From a virus (lineage: Duplodnaviria; Heunggongvirae; Uroviricota; Caudoviricetes), in IMG/VR virus record IMGVR_UViG_2724679236_000011, positions 1 through 5,221 of that record: a stretch of 5,221 bases of DNA; one strand, 5' to 3'. The first letter of the stretch is position 1. Every line of letters begins with the position of its first letter. Of the stretch, positions 1-5,221 are shown piece after piece. Below the pieces are notes generated by a model. It did no database searches and had not been told where the DNA came from. It saw nothing but the letters and a program-made list of their open reading frames with translations. A program made the translations under genes and the position numbers.

Positions 1-84
1 CAGAATCAGCCGGATGAAATTCCCGTTCTGGAATGGCAGGGAGTACGTGTCGTGACAACCGAAACTCTTGCTAGAGGGTATGGG
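1..84. repeat. Terminal inverted repeat, left copy (perfect reverse complement of 5138-5221)
   Basis: Positions 1-84 equal the reverse complement of 5138-5221 exactly; identity breaks at position 85 / 5137. Confidence 0.95.
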
Positions 85-780
85 GTCGATGAAGCCAATA
101 TTCGCAACAATTTGTCTCGCAACCTTGACCGCTTTGAAGAAGGTAAGCATTACTTTCTTCTAACTGGTTTAAAATTAAGAGAATTTAAGAACAGAGTAAC
201 CGGAAGTTACTCTGTTGGTAAGAACGCCAGAAGCCTTACACTCTGGACAGAGCGCGGCGCTGCACGCATGTCTAAGATCGTGGACACAAATGAAGCATGG
301 GCATTCTTTGAAAAACTGGAAGACAGCTACTTCCGGCAAAAAGAACAGCAACCGGTTGCAATCCCCCAAACATTACCAGAAGCCCTACGCCTGGCTGCCG
401 AACTGGCTGAACAAAAGCAGCTTCTGGAACAGAAAGCCCACCAGCTAAATCAGCAGCTGGTGGCCGCCGCTCCTAAGGTCGATTTTGCCGACCGGGTATC
501 AGTAGCTAAAGGGATCCTGATTGGGAATTTTGCAAAGGTTGTTGGACTTAAGCAAAATGCGCTGTTTGCCTGGTTACGGGAGAACGGCATCCTGATAGCG
601 TCCGGTGGACGTAAAAATGTGCCGTTCCAGCAGTACATCAACGCGGGGTATTTCACGGTGAAAGAAGTGGAAGATGGCTACCAGATACGGTTGACGCCTC
701 AATTAACGGGTAAAGGCCAGCAGTGGTTGACGCGTAAACTGCTCGATGCTGGCTTGTTAAAACCGGTGGCGGCTGAATAA
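1..780 (+). CDS. Antirepressor-like protein, 5'-truncated by window edge (ORF continues in frame from position 1; track start GTG at 52). N-terminal ORF6N/Rha-like region, coiled linker, C-terminal KilAC/Ant-type domain
   Basis: Long ORF open to window start; stop TAA 778-780. C-terminal motifs (FADRVSVAKGILIGNFAKVVGLKQNALFAWLRENGILIASGGRKNVPFQQYINAGYF) resemble phage antirepressor C-terminal domains as I recall them. A paralog lies inverted at 4451-5221. Confidence 0.7.
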   Translation, partial: QNQPDEIPVLEWQGVRVVTTETLARGYGVDEANIRNNLSRNLDRFEEGKHYFLLTGLKLREFKNRVTGSYSVGKNARSLTLWTERGAARMSKIVDTNEAWAFFEKLEDSYFRQKEQQPVAIPQTLPEALRLAAELAEQKQLLEQKAHQLNQQLVAAAPKVDFADRVSVAKGILIGNFAKVVGLKQNALFAWLRENGILIASGGRKNVPFQQYINAGYFTVKEVEDGYQIRLTPQLTGKGQQWLTRKLLDAGLLKPVAAE

Positions 781-787
781 TGGAAGA

Positions 788-818
788 ATGCCCGGTTGAT
801 GCCGGGCATAATTTATTG
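788..818. terminator. Bidirectional intrinsic terminator between convergent ant-like gene and c1
   Basis: Perfect 8-bp stem ATGCCCGG (788-795) / CCGGGCAT (802-809) with 6-nt loop, followed by AATTTATT on + strand and a T-rich stretch on the - strand side. Sits between stop codons at 778-780 (+) and 813-815 (-). Confidence 0.6.
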
Positions 819-1664
819 CGCGCTTTCGGGGTTGTCGTTTACTGGCTGCCCCTTCTTGGTTTTACGGCTGCGCGTAACTGATGCGGCTGACTTAACCTTT
901 TTCTCTTCGCGAGTGATGGCAATTTGTTTTTTTACATTTTCAATATCTGCCAGGCGATATATTTTTGCTTGCGGCCAGCGGTCGCAGATGATCGGTTCTA
1001 TGGAGTCATAAAGGCTAAATTTTGCTTTTTCGAATTCACCGTTGATGATAATTCCATCACGGAGAGTTTCATCGCAGATAAACACGCCACACAGTGGCAC
1101 ATGGTAACTAACTGATTTACCATCATTGTAGTTAGGGCTACTGGAAATGTAGTGGACGCGCAGCATTGTTTCGCTAAAGCCGTGTACGCGCATACGGAAT
1201 TTTTCATCCTCCGGGTACTGCTTCATTAGCTCTTTTGTTGCTTCCAGGTTCTCTATGTATTTCGCACTGTGCTCATTGATCCCCGCGCTTTTTTGGATGC
1301 GAATGTCCTTATCAATCAGATGAATAATGCGGCCAGCGGTCATGTTGACGCTGTTCACAGCCTCTGTCTGATAAGTTGTAACCTTACGCACACCGCGAAG
1401 GATGTTAGGCACTGGATATAAAATAGTCTTTGGGATATTGAGGTCTGGGTACTGTTCCAGTTCCCGCGCCATTAAAGTCCATTTATCAATTTCAGCCTGA
1501 ATGCTGTCAGTTTCTTTGAACGGTAGAACGACAACCGGGCGTACAGGACGACCGTCGCTGGCTGTATCAACGTGTTGGGCGCGTGCAACAGCTTTTTTTA
1601 GAAAGAGATCCCTGAAGCTGACGAACTCCTGGTACAGTTGTTCGCCGTAGACATAATTTATCAT
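813..1664 (-). CDS. c1: P1-type C1 repressor of lysis (283 aa)
   Basis: 283-aa ORF with strong SD (GGAGGAGG, reverse complement of 1668-1675) upstream of ATG. Length and N-terminus (MINYVYGEQLYQEF...) match my recollection of P1 C1. Sits directly downstream of a 69-aa coi-like ORF and near multiple C1-operator motifs, next to loxP/cre. Confidence 0.85.
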   Translation of the reverse strand: MINYVYGEQLYQEFVSFRDLFLKKAVARAQHVDTASDGRPVRPVVVLPFKETDSIQAEIDKWTLMARELEQYPDLNIPKTILYPVPNILRGVRKVTTYQTEAVNSVNMTAGRIIHLIDKDIRIQKSAGINEHSAKYIENLEATKELMKQYPEDEKFRMRVHGFSETMLRVHYISSSPNYNDGKSVSYHVPLCGVFICDETLRDGIIINGEFEKAKFSLYDSIEPIICDRWPQAKIYRLADIENVKKQIAITREEKKVKSAASVTRSRKTKKGQPVNDNPESAQ

Positions 1665-1774: not shown

Positions 1775-1984
1775 TTATTGTGAGTCCAACTGGTTAGTTG
1801 CCATGAGATATTCGATTGTGTCAGTGAGGTCATCCAGGTCGTCTTGGGTGATGCGGTACTCCTGATTGGATATCTTTGAGTAGTGTTCAGCAATGGCGCG
1901 GGCAGCGTCGGTTTCGGCAGGGTCTACAGATAAAGCGTTAGAGCAATGTCTAACGTCGTCGATGGTTGGTTGAATGAAAGCCAT
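1775..1984 (-). CDS. coi: Coi, C1 inactivator (69 aa)
   Basis: 69-aa acidic ORF immediately upstream of and co-oriented with c1, with a GAGG SD 8 nt before the ATG. Size and position match P1 coi in the immC operon. Confidence 0.75.
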   Translation of the reverse strand: MAFIQPTIDDVRHCSNALSVDPAETDAARAIAEHYSKISNQEYRITQDDLDDLTDTIEYLMATNQLDSQ

Positions 1985-2817: not shown

Positions 2818-3849
2818 ATGTCCAATTTACTGACCGTTCACCAAAATTTGCCTGCATTGCCGGTCGATGCAACGAGTGATGAGGTTCGCAAGAACCTGAT
2901 GGATATGTTCAGGGATCGCCAGGCGTTTTCTGAGCATACCTGGAAAATGCTTCTGTCCGTTTGCCGGTCGTGGGCGGCATGGTGCAAGTTGAATAACCGG
3001 AAATGGTTTCCCGCAGAACCTGAAGATGTTCGCGATTATCTTCTATATCTTCAGGCGCGCGGTCTGGCAGTAAAAACTATCCAGCAACATTTGGGCCAGC
3101 TAAACATGCTGCATCGTCGGTCCGGGCTGCCACGACCAAGTGACAGCAATGCTGTTTCACTGGTCATGCGGCGGATCCGAAAAGAAAACGTTGATGCCGG
3201 TGAACGTGCAAAACAGGCATTGGCGTTCGAACGCACTGATTTCGACCAGGTTCGTTCACTCATGGAAAATAGCGATCGCTGCCAGGATATACGTAATCTG
3301 GCATTTCTGGGGATTGCTTATAACACCCTGTTACGTATAGCCGAAATTTCCAGGATCAGGGTTAAAGATATCTCACGTACTGACGGTGGGAGAATGTTAA
3401 TCCATATTGGCAGAACGAAAACGCTGGTTAGCACCGCTGGTGTAGAGAAGGCACTTAGCCTGGGGGTAACTAAACTGGTTGAGCGATGGATTTCTGTCTC
3501 TGGTGTGGCTGATGATCCGAATAACTACTTGTTTTGCCGGGTCAGAAAAAATGGTGTTGCCTCGCCATCATCCACCAGCCAGCTATCAACTCGCGCCCTG
3601 GAAGGGATTTTTGAAGCAACTCACCGATTGATTTACGGAGCTAAGGATGACTCTGGTCAGAGATACCTGGCCTGGTCTGGACACAGTGCCCGTGTCGGAG
3701 CCGCGCGAGATATGGCCCGCGCCGGAGTTTCAATACCGGAGATCATGCAAGCTGGTGGCTGGACCAACGTAAATATTGTCATGAACTATATCCGTAACCT
3801 GGATAGTGAAACAGGGGCAATGGTGCGCCTGCTGGAGGATGGCGATTAG
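2818..3849 (+). CDS. cre: Cre tyrosine site-specific recombinase (343 aa)
   Basis: Sequence essentially matches P1 Cre from memory (MSNLLTVHQNLPALPVDATSDEVRKNLMDMFRDRQAF...MVRLLEDGD). Catalytic-motif context is present (GHSARVG, GGWTN, MNYIRN with the tyrosine nucleophile). Adjacent to loxP. Confidence 0.97.
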   Translation: MSNLLTVHQNLPALPVDATSDEVRKNLMDMFRDRQAFSEHTWKMLLSVCRSWAAWCKLNNRKWFPAEPEDVRDYLLYLQARGLAVKTIQQHLGQLNMLHRRSGLPRPSDSNAVSLVMRRIRKENVDAGERAKQALAFERTDFDQVRSLMENSDRCQDIRNLAFLGIAYNTLLRIAEISRIRVKDISRTDGGRMLIHIGRTKTLVSTAGVEKALSLGVTKLVERWISVSGVADDPNNYLFCRVRKNGVASPSSTSQLSTRALEGIFEATHRLIYGAKDDSGQRYLAWSGHSARVGAARDMARAGVSIPEIMQAGGWTNVNIVMNYIRNLDSETGAMVRLLEDGD

Positions 3850-3866
3850 CCATTAACACGTAAATT

Positions 3867-3883
3867 ATTGCTCTAATTATTTG
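3867..3883 (+). promoter_or_regulatory. C1 operator-like site (ATTGCTCTAATTATTTG) upstream of the 103-aa ORF
   Basis: 12/17 match to the operator consensus with an intact ATTGCTCTAAT core. Located 17 bp after the cre stop and 17 bp before the next ATG. Confidence 0.55.
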
Positions 3884-3899
3884 GTATTTATGGTGACAT

Positions 3900-4211
3900 A
3901 TGAGAAAGGATTTCAACATCGACGGAAAATATGTAGTGCTGTCTGTAAGCACTAATATTCAGTCGCCAGCCGTCATTGTCACTGTAAAGCTGAGCGATAG
4001 AATGCCTGATATTGACTCAATATCCGTTGCGTTCCCTGTCAAAAGTATGCGTAGTGCTGAACATTTCGTGATGAATGCCACCGAGGAAGAAGCACGGCGC
4101 GGTTTTGCTAAAGTGATGTCTGAGTTTGGCGAATTCCTGGGGCACGTTAACAAAGCTCTCTCAATCAGTTCATCAAGGTCCAAAGCGTTAACAGCATCCA
4201 TGATGAAATAA
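3900..4211 (+). CDS. Hypothetical protein (103 aa), cre-downstream, likely C1-regulated
   Basis: ATG at 3900 with GGTGA SD 5 nt upstream and an operator-like site just upstream; stop TAA 4209-4211. It occupies the position of the cre-adjacent small gene in P1-like genomes, but I cannot confirm identity from memory. Confidence 0.55.
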   Translation: MRKDFNIDGKYVVLSVSTNIQSPAVIVTVKLSDRMPDIDSISVAFPVKSMRSAEHFVMNATEEEARRGFAKVMSEFGEFLGHVNKALSISSSRSKALTASMMK

Positions 4212-4235
4212 AAAAGCCTGGCAAGGAGCCAGGCT
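4203..4235 (-). terminator. Intrinsic terminator oriented for minus-strand transcripts
   Basis: Stem AGCCTGGC (4215-4222) / GCCAGGCT (4228-4235) with 5-nt loop. On the - strand it is followed by TTTTTTATTT (complement of 4203-4214). On the + strand there is no T-tract after the stem. Confidence 0.55.
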
Positions 4236-4341
4236 GCACAAAATAGCGAGTTTGTATCCCGCATCCAATCAATCGGAAGGGAGTATAGCACATAGGTACT
4301 GAAGTGAAAAAATGTGAATTGCGATAAATAAATCGCATGCT

Positions 4342-4365
4342 ATTGCTCTAATTAATTGCTACAAT
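4342..4365 (+). promoter_or_regulatory. C1 operator-like site (ATTGCTCTAATTAATTG) overlapping a -10-like TACAAT (4360-4365)
   Basis: Intact ATTGCTCTAAT core at 4342-4352, with TACAAT 2 bp beyond the operator. No credible ORF follows before the terminator at 4425-4448. Confidence 0.5.
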
Positions 4366-4424
4366 CAAGCCGTGGCGCTAGTCAACTACGAAGACATGGC
4401 CATTACCTGCTTCTTGAAATCATT

Positions 4425-4448
4425 GGCGGCCTAAAGGCCGCCTTTTTT
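4425..4448 (+). terminator. Rho-independent terminator (GGCGGCC-TAAA-GGCCGCC + TTTTTT)
   Basis: 7-bp GC stem (4425-4431 / 4436-4442), 4-nt loop, T6 run 4443-4448. Lies immediately 3' of the minus-strand ant-like gene stop (4451-4453), so it may act in both directions. Confidence 0.75.
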
Positions 4449-4450
4449 AA

Positions 4451-5221
4451 TCACTCAGCCGCTACAGGCTTTAATAAACTTGCATCGAGCAGTTTACGCG
4501 TCAACCACTGCTGGCCTTTCCCCGTTAGCTGGGGCGTCAACCGTATCTGGTAGCCATCTTCATCATCCAGCACCACTTCTTTCACCGTGAAATACCCGGC
4601 GTTGATGTATTGCTGGAACGGTACATTTTTACGTCCACCGGACGCTATCAGGATACCGTTCTCCCGTAACCAGGCAAACAGCGCGTTTTGCTTAAGTCCA
4701 ACAACCTTTGCAAAATTCCCAATCAGGATCCCCTTGGCCACTGATATCCGGTCGGCAAAATCGACTTTAGGGGCTGCGGCCACCAGCTGTTGTTCCAGCT
4801 GCATTTTCTGTTCAGCCAGTTCGGCAGCCAGGCGCAGGGCTTCTGGAAGCGTCTGGGGGATTGCAACCGGTTGCTGTTCTTTTTGTCGGAAGTAGCTGTC
4901 TTCCAGTTTTTCAAAGAATGCCCATGCCTGATCGGTTTCGAGCATTTTAGCGTGGCGGGCTGCGCCGCGTTCCGTCCAGAGAGTGAGGTGCTTTGCTCGC
5001 GGTGCGACTAAGTTACTTTGAGTAACCTTGTCCTTCAATTCTTTTAATTTTGAACCAGTTAGTAGAAAGTAATGTTTACCTTCCTCAAAGCGATCAGCAT
5101 TACGCGTATAGTTAACTTTGATGTTATTAGTTTCGGTCCCATACCCTCTAGCAAGAGTTTCGGTTGTCACGACACGTACTCCCTGCCATTCCAGAACGGG
5201 AATTTCATCCGGCTGATTCTG
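4451..5221 (-). CDS. Antirepressor-like protein paralog, 5'-truncated by window edge (ORF open to position 5221; track start GTG at 5170)
   Basis: Paralog of the 1-780 gene. Protein is identical over the first 11 residues, divergent over roughly residues 12-80, and near-identical thereafter apart from two in-frame indels and two substitutions. Confidence 0.7.
   Translation of the reverse strand, partial: QNQPDEIPVLEWQGVRVVTTETLARGYGTETNNIKVNYTRNADRFEEGKHYFLLTGSKLKELKDKVTQSNLVAPRAKHLTLWTERGAARHAKMLETDQAWAFFEKLEDSYFRQKEQQPVAIPQTLPEALRLAAELAEQKMQLEQQLVAAAPKVDFADRISVAKGILIGNFAKVVGLKQNALFAWLRENGILIASGGRKNVPFQQYINAGYFTVKEVVLDDEDGYQIRLTPQLTGKGQQWLTRKLLDASLLKPVAAE
5138..5221. repeat. Terminal inverted repeat, right copy
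   Basis: Reverse complement of 1-84, read directly. Confidence 0.95.

What the first reader, a model, noticed from the sequence alone, without database searches (positions are those of the whole stretch)
4342..4448. Orphan C1-operator/promoter driving a short terminated transcript: candidate C1-repressed small RNA
A C1 operator-like site with an adjacent TACAAT -10 (4360-4365) is followed by no credible ORF and then, about 60 nt later, a strong intrinsic terminator (4425-4448). This predicts a 60-80 nt transcript made only when C1 is inactivated. It ends 3 nt from the stop of the inward-facing ant-like gene, so it could pair with or interfere with that gene's 3' end. Alternatively it is a remnant of a C1-regulated promoter (as for ref in P1) whose cargo gene was replaced.
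Basis: inference. Interest (0 to 1): 0.5.

Follow-up and report, generated by a model that had tools for sequence, protein, structure and literature searches.

The report
Leftover P1 ref promoter and attenuator
The "orphan" operator, promoter and terminator are the long-known control region of phage P1's ref gene, left behind in a P1-like plasmid lineage where ref was swapped for an inverted antirepressor cassette, so this is an ordinary remnant and probably not a new small-RNA gene.

Summary
A C1 operator lies at 4342-4358 and an extended -10 (TGcTACAAT) at 4357-4365. There is no credible ORF. A strong hairpin plus T6 lies at 4425-4448, 2 nt from the stop of a convergent ant-like gene.

The region is not a new unit. 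It is the orthologue of the P1 ref control region: Oref, P2ref, the leader and the leader hairpin. Homology to P1 stops exactly in the T-run (P1 position 2069). In P1 the ref ATG follows 8 nt later.

Of 110 P1-like loci, 87 have ref right after the hairpin. Nineteen have the same TTTTTT-AA-TCA junction to ant as this window. Four carry transposon insertions.

The window is 99.94% identical to E. albertii plasmid pEA4_97. There the ref coding sequence (P1 2070-2628) is replaced by an inverted c4-icd-ant cassette of 1,708 bp that ends at the Omat operator. No Ref is encoded anywhere on that plasmid.

In ref-less lineages the operator core and the -10 vary as much as the neighbouring spacer. The hairpin stems and T-run never vary (0 of 20 sites against 37 of 99).

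Most likely reading: a leftover promoter makes a short by-product RNA, and the terminator is kept to shield the convergent cassette. A functional small RNA is not excluded, but nothing supports it.

The parts
3900..4211 (+). c8 gene, the upstream neighbour. Together with cra and cre it forms the rightward transcription unit that precedes the element.
   Evidence: ORF. It is 96.2% identical to P1 c8.
4215..4235 (-). Hairpin just after the c8 stop. It has a T-run only on the minus strand, so it is a leftward terminator and a poor rightward one.
   Evidence: One search lists it on the minus strand only. One search gives -16.2 kcal/mol with z = -4.5. On the plus strand it is followed by GCACAAAA.
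4342..4358 (+). C1 repressor operator, the orthologue of P1 Oref.
   Evidence: Two mismatches to the consensus. It aligns with P1 1962-1978, annotated as 'monovalent C1 controlled operator Oref'.
4357..4365 (+). Extended -10 TGcTACAAT, the orthologue of the P1 P2ref -10 (TGcTATAAT). The start site is predicted near 4370-4373.
   Evidence: Sequence, alignment to P1 1980-1985. The start site is inferred, not measured.
4366..4424 (+). Leader, the orthologue of the P1 ref leader. It holds a weak counterpart of P1ref (TGGCCA at 4397-4402, 16-nt spacer, TGaAATCAT ending at 4424).
   Evidence: 76% identical to P1. The window-type allele also occurs upstream of ref in L109. No robust 5' structure.
4425..4442 (+). 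Terminator or attenuator hairpin GGCGGCC-TAAA-GGCCGCC.
   Evidence: The stems are identical to P1 2046-2063 and invariant in all 12 ref-less haplotypes.
4443..4448 (+). T6 tract of the terminator. This is the last stretch homologous to P1 and the left junction of the cassette swap.
   Evidence: Homology to P1 ends at window 4448, which is P1 2069. The same TTTTTTAATCA junction occurs in all 19 ant-type loci.
4451..5221 (-). Convergent ant-like antirepressor gene, cut by the window end. It is the last gene of an inverted c4-icd-ant cassette that replaces ref.
   Evidence: ORF6N and KilAC domains. In pEA4_97 the gene is 363 aa and lies downstream of icd and a C4 RNA.

Best explanation
Positions 4342-4448 are the orthologue of the phage P1 ref control region. 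It comprises the C1 operator Oref overlapping the extended -10 promoter P2ref, a roughly 60-nt leader, and a GC-rich hairpin plus T-run. In P1 that hairpin sits 8 nt upstream of the ref start codon, and I infer it is the published 'attenuator'.

In this lineage of P1-like phage-plasmids the ref coding sequence was replaced by an inverted c4-icd-ant (immI-like) cassette. The left junction lies in the terminator T-run and the right junction at the Omat operator. The control region was therefore left without a gene.

Inferred mechanism: when C1 is inactivated, sigma-70 polymerase starts near 4371, makes an RNA of about 75-80 nt, and stops at 4443-4448. This RNA is the same attenuated leader predicted in P1 and is most likely a by-product.

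Selection still keeps the terminator. It is the first rightward intrinsic terminator after cra-cre-c8 and P2ref. It stops rightward transcription from running antisense into the convergent ant-icd-c4 operon. It also places a hairpin at the 3' end of the ant message.
For: Shown:
- Homology to P1 runs through c8, Oref, P2ref and the hairpin, and ends at P1 2069 inside the T-run. In P1 the ref ATG is at 2077.
- The P1 record annotates Oref, P2ref and P1ref at the aligned positions. The hairpin is the only plus-strand terminator-like site between c8 and the end of ref in P1.
[quoted passage not shown] I saw this title in the reference list of PMC4713147.
- Of 110 loci anchored on the c8 hairpin, 87 have ref after the hairpin, 19 have the identical ant junction, and 4 have transposon insertions.
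- The window is 99.94% identical to pEA4_97. That plasmid has no Ref by tblastn but does have Mat. P1 2070-2628 is replaced there by 1,708 bp carrying ant, icd, C4 RNA and its a1b1 targets in inverted orientation, ending at Omat.
- In 12 ref-less haplotypes the stems plus T-run have 0 of 20 variable sites. The spacer has 37 of 99 (Fisher p = 3.5e-4) and the leader 31 of 66 (p = 3e-5). The operator (6 of 17) and TGn-10 (5 of 9) vary like the spacer.
- In 54 ref-linked haplotypes the operator core and the -10 hexamer never vary.
- No other plus-strand terminator lies between lox and 4425.

Inferred: the start site, actual termination, and the shielding role.
Against: - No transcript data exist for this locus. 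Promoter activity and termination are predictions only.
- The window itself keeps an intact operator core and a near-consensus extended -10, so selection on the promoter in this particular sub-lineage cannot be excluded.
- The haplotypes are phylogenetically related. The operator changes trace to perhaps 3-4 events, so the contrast in variable sites is descriptive and not a formal test.
- I could not read Windle 1988. Equating its 'attenuator' with this hairpin is my inference.
- On the minus strand the hairpin is followed by AAUGAUUUCA, not a U-tract, so its role as the ant terminator is doubtful.
Confidence: 0.75

Rival explanations
1. The short RNA from the orphan promoter is a genuine C1-repressed regulatory RNA, and perhaps already is one in P1. 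It would act in trans through its single-stranded 5' part. Alternatively it would act in cis as an antisense partner of an ant mRNA that reads through the hairpin as far as the leftward terminator at 4235-4215.
For: - It has the layout of a small-RNA gene: a promoter, no ORF, and a strong terminator with a U-tail preceded by a U-rich stretch.
- A 15-nt block, GTCAACTACGAAGAC, is nearly invariant while its flanks vary.
- Eight of 12 ref-less haplotypes still have a perfect TATAAT.
- The hairpin lacks a U-tract on the minus strand, so ant transcripts may overlap the leader completely.
Against: - No Rfam family matches the locus.
- The longest complementarity elsewhere on the 97-kb plasmid is 13 nt, and 9% of shuffled leaders reach that length.
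- The P1 5' stem-loop is not kept in the window.
- The operator core and -10 drift like spacer in exactly the lineages where the RNA would be the only product.
- Two of the 3 differences between the window and pEA4_97 lie in this promoter region, one of them in the -10 hexamer, which is TACGAT in pEA4_97.
Confidence: 0.12
2. The promoter is dead or irrelevant in this context. Only the hairpin matters, as the terminator for cre-c8 read-through and as a 3' cap for the ant message. No discrete short transcript is made.
For: - The -10 has decayed stepwise in this sub-lineage: TATAAT to TACAAT in the window and TACGAT in pEA4_97.
- The -35 is poor at 3 of 6, and the scan does not call a promoter here.
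- Only the hairpin is invariant.
Against: TACAAT keeps the key A2 and T6 positions and has the TG extension. The P1 promoter with an equally poor -35 is annotated as P2ref, and ref was induced 73-fold after thermal induction of a P1 lysogen (PMC4713147).
Confidence: 0.15
3. The attenuator-antiterminator logic of ref has been co-opted. After induction, regulated read-through of the hairpin sends antisense transcription into ant-icd-c4 and tunes the extra immunity cassette.
For: The 1988 title implies that read-through of the ref attenuator can be regulated in P1. The convergent geometry would turn any read-through into antisense RNA. A weak P1ref-like promoter (TGGCCA, 16-nt spacer, TGaAATCAT at 4397-4424) would start inside the hairpin and bypass it.
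Against: This is pure inference. The junction shortened the T-run only from 8 to 6. The right-hand cassette is itself decaying in several lineages: only 432 nt of ant remain in six loci, and it is split into pseudogenes in pO111_2.
Confidence: 0.05

Closest known systems
Phage P1 ref regulatory region: Oref/P2ref, P1ref and the leader attenuator (Windle, Laufer and Hays 1988, J Bacteriol 170:4881; annotation of AF234172)
   Same: It occupies the orthologous position after c8. It has the same 17-bp operator overlapping a TGn extended -10, the same hairpin stems and a T-run. The sequence is alignable from end to end.
   Different: No ref gene follows. The T-run is cut from 8 to 6 and abuts the stop codon of a convergent ant gene. 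The leader is 76% identical to P1, and the P1 5' stem-loop is lost.
Phage lambda pR'-tR' 6S RNA: a short terminated leader that needs an antiterminator to reach the late genes. This comparison rests on my own knowledge.
   Same: A phage promoter followed closely by an intrinsic terminator, giving a short RNA that is a by-product of a read-through control point.
   Different: Lambda keeps its downstream genes and a known antiterminator (Q). Here the downstream gene is gone, and I could not identify an antiterminator.
P1 immI C4 antisense RNA (Rfam RF01695)
   Same: It is a small non-coding RNA in the P1 immunity circuit. Three C4 copies are present on the near-identical plasmid, one in the cassette that abuts this element.
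   Different: No sequence or structure relation. C4 is processed from the immI operon transcript. The present RNA would come from its own C1-controlled promoter, and Rfam gives no match at 4342-4448.
Extra icd-ant modules in P1-like plasmids, such as region RD-1 of pSvP1 (Venturini et al. 2019, PMC6906374)
   Same: Additional icd-ant1/2 homologues acquired in the variable ref/res-mod neighbourhood of P1-like plasmids.
   Different: In pSvP1 the module lies in the res-mod position, after mat. Here it replaces ref exactly, between the attenuator and Omat.

Membership tests
P1 ref control region (Oref/P2ref plus attenuator) | A C1 operator overlapping the -10 of a sigma-70 promoter, downstream of c8 | tested here: met
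   4342-4358 aligns with the annotated Oref and 4360-4365 with the P2ref -10. The operator match is far above chance.
P1 ref control region (Oref/P2ref plus attenuator) | A GC-rich hairpin plus T-run in the leader, before the start codon | tested here: met
   The stems are identical to P1 2046-2063 and the T-run is present.
P1 ref control region (Oref/P2ref plus attenuator) | Controls a downstream ref gene | tested here: not met
   A convergent ant gene follows instead. tblastn with P1 Ref finds nothing on the whole near-identical plasmid, while Mat is found.
P1 ref control region (Oref/P2ref plus attenuator) | Transcription repressed by C1 and attenuated at the hairpin | not testable with these tools
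   This needs in vivo or in vitro transcription. Only the 1988 title and a report of 73-fold ref induction in P1 were accessible.
Stand-alone regulatory small RNA gene | Own promoter and an intrinsic terminator with a U-tail, with no ORF | tested here: met
   These are predictions only.
Stand-alone regulatory small RNA gene | Promoter and RNA body conserved where the RNA is the only product | tested here: not met
   In ref-less haplotypes the operator core changed in 6 of 12 and the -10 in 4 of 12. The leader is variable at 31 of 66 sites. Only the terminator is fixed.
Stand-alone regulatory small RNA gene | An identifiable target or a match to a known RNA family | tested here: not met
   No Rfam hit at the locus. 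The best complementarity on the plasmid is 13 nt, within chance. Host targets were not searched.
Bidirectional terminator between convergent genes | A hairpin between two convergent units, flanked by an A-tract on one side and a T-tract on the other | tested here: inconclusive
   The hairpin lies between P2ref/c8 (+) and ant (-). The T-tract is present for the plus strand only. On the minus strand the tail is AAUGAUUUCA.

The most novel reading that the evidence does not exclude
The attenuated ref leader is itself a lytic-phase, C1-repressed regulatory RNA, both in P1 and in ref-less relatives. In this lineage it would act as a cis-antisense partner of a long ant 3' UTR, or regulated read-through of its terminator would send antisense transcription into the extra c4-icd-ant cassette. 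Either way the C1 switch would be coupled to a second antirepressor module.
Probability: 0.1. Interest if true: 0.5.

Novelty: new variant of a known kind. Interest (0 to 1): 0.2.

Why it matters
It matters mainly as a clean-up. What looks like a novel small-RNA gene is a known regulatory region stranded by a cassette swap.

Three modest points of interest remain:
- It shows how modules are exchanged in P1-like phage-plasmids. The junctions sit at a terminator T-run and at a 17-bp C1 operator.
- It gives a natural experiment. Once ref is gone, selection keeps the terminator but not the operator or promoter, which argues that the hairpin has a shielding role of its own.
- The plasmid carries three c4-icd-ant modules, two of them inverted around the c1-lox-cre region. 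This may matter for superinfection immunity in E. albertii and STEC plasmids.

Tried and rejected
- Rfam at E-value 1 over the whole window gave only chance-level hits. The best was MicX on the minus strand at 21.7 bits, against a gathering score of 75.
- The leader-peptide idea was rejected. The window's 12-codon ATG ORF (4396-4434) is absent from P1. A TTG frame that runs into ref in P1 is broken by 1-nt indels and T-run length changes in relatives.
- I considered that the window's unusual divergence from P1 in the leader (76%) reflects decay after ref loss. I rejected this because a similar leader allele (loop TAAA, GAAATCATT, CATGGCC) sits upstream of an intact ref in L109, and partly in L092.
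- I considered that the junction lies inside the hairpin loop, because ant-type loops are GAAA or TAAA and ref-type loops are ATTA. I rejected this because L109 has TAAA together with ref.
- I looked for inversion of the c1-to-c8 segment between the two inverted ant copies. In every ant-type locus whose flanks reach mat, the hairpin side joins the mat side. No inverted isomer was seen.
- An RNA duplex energy scan of the leader against the plasmid timed out. I replaced it with an exact-complement scan.
- Windle 1988, Schaefer and Hays 1990, and the P1 genome paper (Lobocka 2004) are not held in the library.
- Literature searches for a P1 small RNA at this locus found nothing.

Full report
**What the window is.** The window is the immC-lox-cre region of a P1-like phage-plasmid.
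- c1 lies at 813-1664 (-) and coi at 1775-1984 (-).
- loxP is near 2366-2399.
- cra lies at 2589-2810, cre at 2818-3849 and c8 at 3900-4211.
- Two inverted, partly cut ant-like genes flank the whole, at 52-780 (+) and 4451-5221 (-).
- The ant-like product carries ORF6N and KilAC domains.
- The window is 99.94% identical (3 mismatches in 5,221 nt) to Escherichia albertii plasmid pEA4_97, NZ_CP117679.1.

**Checking the observation.**
- ATTGCTCTAATTAATTG at 4342-4358 has 2 mismatches to the C1 operator consensus. That consensus comes from my own knowledge.
- Five such sites occur in the window, against 0.05 expected by chance.
- TACAAT at 4360-4365 is preceded by TG, which makes an extended -10.
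- The -35 is poor. This is why the simple scan lists neither this promoter nor the annotated P2ref of P1.
- The hairpin GGCGGCC-TAAA-GGCCGCC plus T6 at 4425-4448 is the best terminator-like site in the window. It is the only robust structure in the predicted 80-nt RNA.
- No credible ORF lies between promoter and hairpin.
- The ant stop codon begins 2 nt after the T-run.

**What it is.** Homology to phage P1 runs from lox through cra, cre, c8 and the intergenic region, and stops exactly at window 4448, which is P1 2069, inside the T-run.
- The P1 record annotates the aligned operator as Oref and the aligned -10 as P2ref. It also annotates a second promoter, P1ref, just before the hairpin, and the ref ATG at 2077.
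- In P1 the same hairpin, with T8, therefore sits in the ref leader, 8 nt ahead of the start codon.
- It is the only plus-strand terminator-like site between c8 and the end of ref.
- The reference list of Ronayne et al. [quoted passage not shown]
- I could not read that paper. Equating its attenuator with this hairpin is my inference, though no other candidate exists.
- Ronayne et al. also report that ref is induced 73-fold after thermal induction of a P1 c1.100 lysogen. They further report an H-NS site, CGATAAA, in the ref 5' region. The window keeps that motif at 4322-4328.

**What happened to ref.** I collected 110 P1-like loci from IMG/VR and from earlier fetches, anchored on the c8 hairpin and therefore blind to the operator and the leader hairpin.
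- 87 have ref immediately after the hairpin.
- 19 have the identical junction TTTTTT-AA-TCA, where TCA is the ant stop.
- 4 have transposon insertions.
- In PLSDB and in complete E. coli genomes, about 8% of records with any match to the 4200-4800 query carry the ant-type junction: 56 of 702 records and 54 of 696 genomes.

In pEA4_97 the picture is specific.
- tblastn finds no Ref anywhere on the plasmid, but Mat is present.
- P1 2070-2628, essentially the ref coding sequence, is replaced by 1,708 bp.
- That insert carries ant, icd, a C4 antisense RNA and its a1b1 targets in inverted orientation.
- The right junction is at the C1 operator Omat.
- The cassette is one of three immI-like modules on the plasmid.
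- pO111_2 of E. coli O111 has the same arrangement with a decayed ant.
- Six IMG/VR loci retain only 432 nt of ant.

**Is the leftover still under selection?** There are 66 distinct haplotypes, 54 ref-linked and 12 ref-less.
- In ref-linked haplotypes the operator core ATTGCTCTAAT and the TATAAT hexamer never vary.
- In ref-less haplotypes the core is changed in 6 of 12, to ATTGCTATAAT or ATTGTTATAAT.
- In ref-less haplotypes the -10 is changed in 4 of 12: CATAAT, TACAAT in the window, and TACGAT in pEA4_97.

| Element (ref-less haplotypes) | Variable sites | Fisher p against stems plus T-run |
|---|---|---|
| Operator | 6 of 17 | not computed |
| TGn-10 | 5 of 9 | not computed |
| Leader | 31 of 66 | 3e-5 |
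| Spacer | 37 of 99 | 3.5e-4 |
| Hairpin stems plus T-run | 0 of 20 | n/a |

The operator does not differ from the spacer in variability (Fisher p = 1.0).
- The few stem variants in ref-linked haplotypes are all C-to-T changes that keep G-U pairs.
- Two of the 3 differences between the window and pEA4_97 lie in this promoter region, at 4334 and at 4363 in the -10. The third, at 3879, lies in another operator-like site.
- The haplotypes are related, so these numbers are descriptive only.
- The window's own divergence from P1 in the leader (76%) is allelic and not post-loss decay. A similar allele sits upstream of ref in L109.

**How it most likely works.** This part is inference.
- With C1 inactive, polymerase starts near 4371, makes an RNA of about 75-80 nt, and terminates at 4443-4448. 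This is the same attenuated leader that P1 is predicted to make.
- With ref gone, the RNA is probably a by-product.
- The conserved part is the terminator, including its T-run, which matters only for rightward transcription.
- The c8 hairpin at 4215-4235 has a T-run only on the minus strand. The 4425 hairpin is therefore the first rightward intrinsic terminator after lox.
- It would stop cra-cre-c8 read-through and P2ref transcripts before they run antisense into the convergent ant-icd-c4 operon.
- On the minus strand the hairpin is followed by AAUGAUUUCA. It is therefore at best a weak terminator for ant, and the next good leftward terminator is 4235-4215.

**The small-RNA idea.** It is not excluded, but nothing supports it.
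- Rfam gives no match at the locus.
- The P1 5' stem-loop is lost in the window.
- The best complementarity elsewhere on the plasmid is 13 nt, a length that 9% of shuffled leaders reach.
- The promoter drifts where the RNA would be the sole product.
- Points in its favour are the gene-like layout, a nearly invariant 15-nt block (GTCAACTACGAAGAC), and possible full overlap with a long ant 3' UTR.

**Verdict.** The element is a known regulatory region in an undescribed orphan context, which makes it a variant of a known kind and of low interest.

Noticed in passing
window 4207-4310, minus strand: A candidate leftward small transcript lies in the c8-Oref spacer. It has a promoter-like TTTTCA, 17-nt spacer and TGcTATACT (4310..4282), a small hairpin (4262..4246), and a strong hairpin (4235..4215) followed by TTTTTTATTTC. 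This predicts an RNA of about 65-70 nt ending over the c8 stop codon. The same signals occur in P1 (1930..1902 and 1855..1835) and are not annotated there. The promoter block is nearly invariant across 66 haplotypes. The predicted RNA folds at -23.5 kcal/mol (z = -2.7).
   Followed up: partly
window 3867-3883: An operator-like site, ATTGCTCTAATTATTTG, lies 17 nt upstream of the c8 start and has an intact operator core. P1 has ATTGCTATAAT there, which is a TGnTATAAT motif and is not annotated as an operator. c8 may therefore be C1-controlled in this lineage but not in P1. One of the only 3 differences from pEA4_97 (position 3879) falls in this site.
   Followed up: partly
window 1-780 and 4451-5221; L002 3998-5581 and 9252-10815: The c1-coi-lox-cra-cre-c8 block is flanked by two inverted immI-like modules (C4 RNA, icd, ant) that are about 83-88% identical. 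The window's last 89 nt are a 98% inverted copy of its first 89 nt. pEA4_97 also has the canonical immI, which makes three C4/icd/ant modules. The left module is additionally preceded by an isrK-like RNA hit. No inverted isomer of the block was found in the ant-type loci whose flanks reach mat.
   Followed up: partly
L002 10940-10975 (P1 2628-2645): The right end of the cassette that replaced ref coincides with the C1 operator Omat. That one operator now sits between the leftward c4-icd-ant cassette and the rightward mat gene. This suggests that short operator homology guided the swap.
   Followed up: partly
L072, L073, L074, L076, L082, L086 (positions aligned to window 4342-4365): In half of the ref-less haplotypes the operator core became ATTGCTATAAT or ATTGTTATAAT. 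The ATTGCTATAAT variant forms a second TGnTATAAT motif just upstream of the original -10. This may turn a repressible promoter into a constitutive one. Several of these loci also have a truncated right-hand ant (432 nt).
   Followed up: no
L095, L104, L108, L112: Four P1-like loci carry transposon or resistance-gene insertions in the c8-ref intergenic region. L095 is interrupted inside the ref leader, which suggests an insertion hot spot.
   Followed up: no
window 4321-4336: The window has a palindrome, GCGAT-AAATAA-ATCGC, that P1 lacks. It contains the CGATAAA motif reported as an H-NS site in the ref 5' region (PMC4713147).
   Followed up: no
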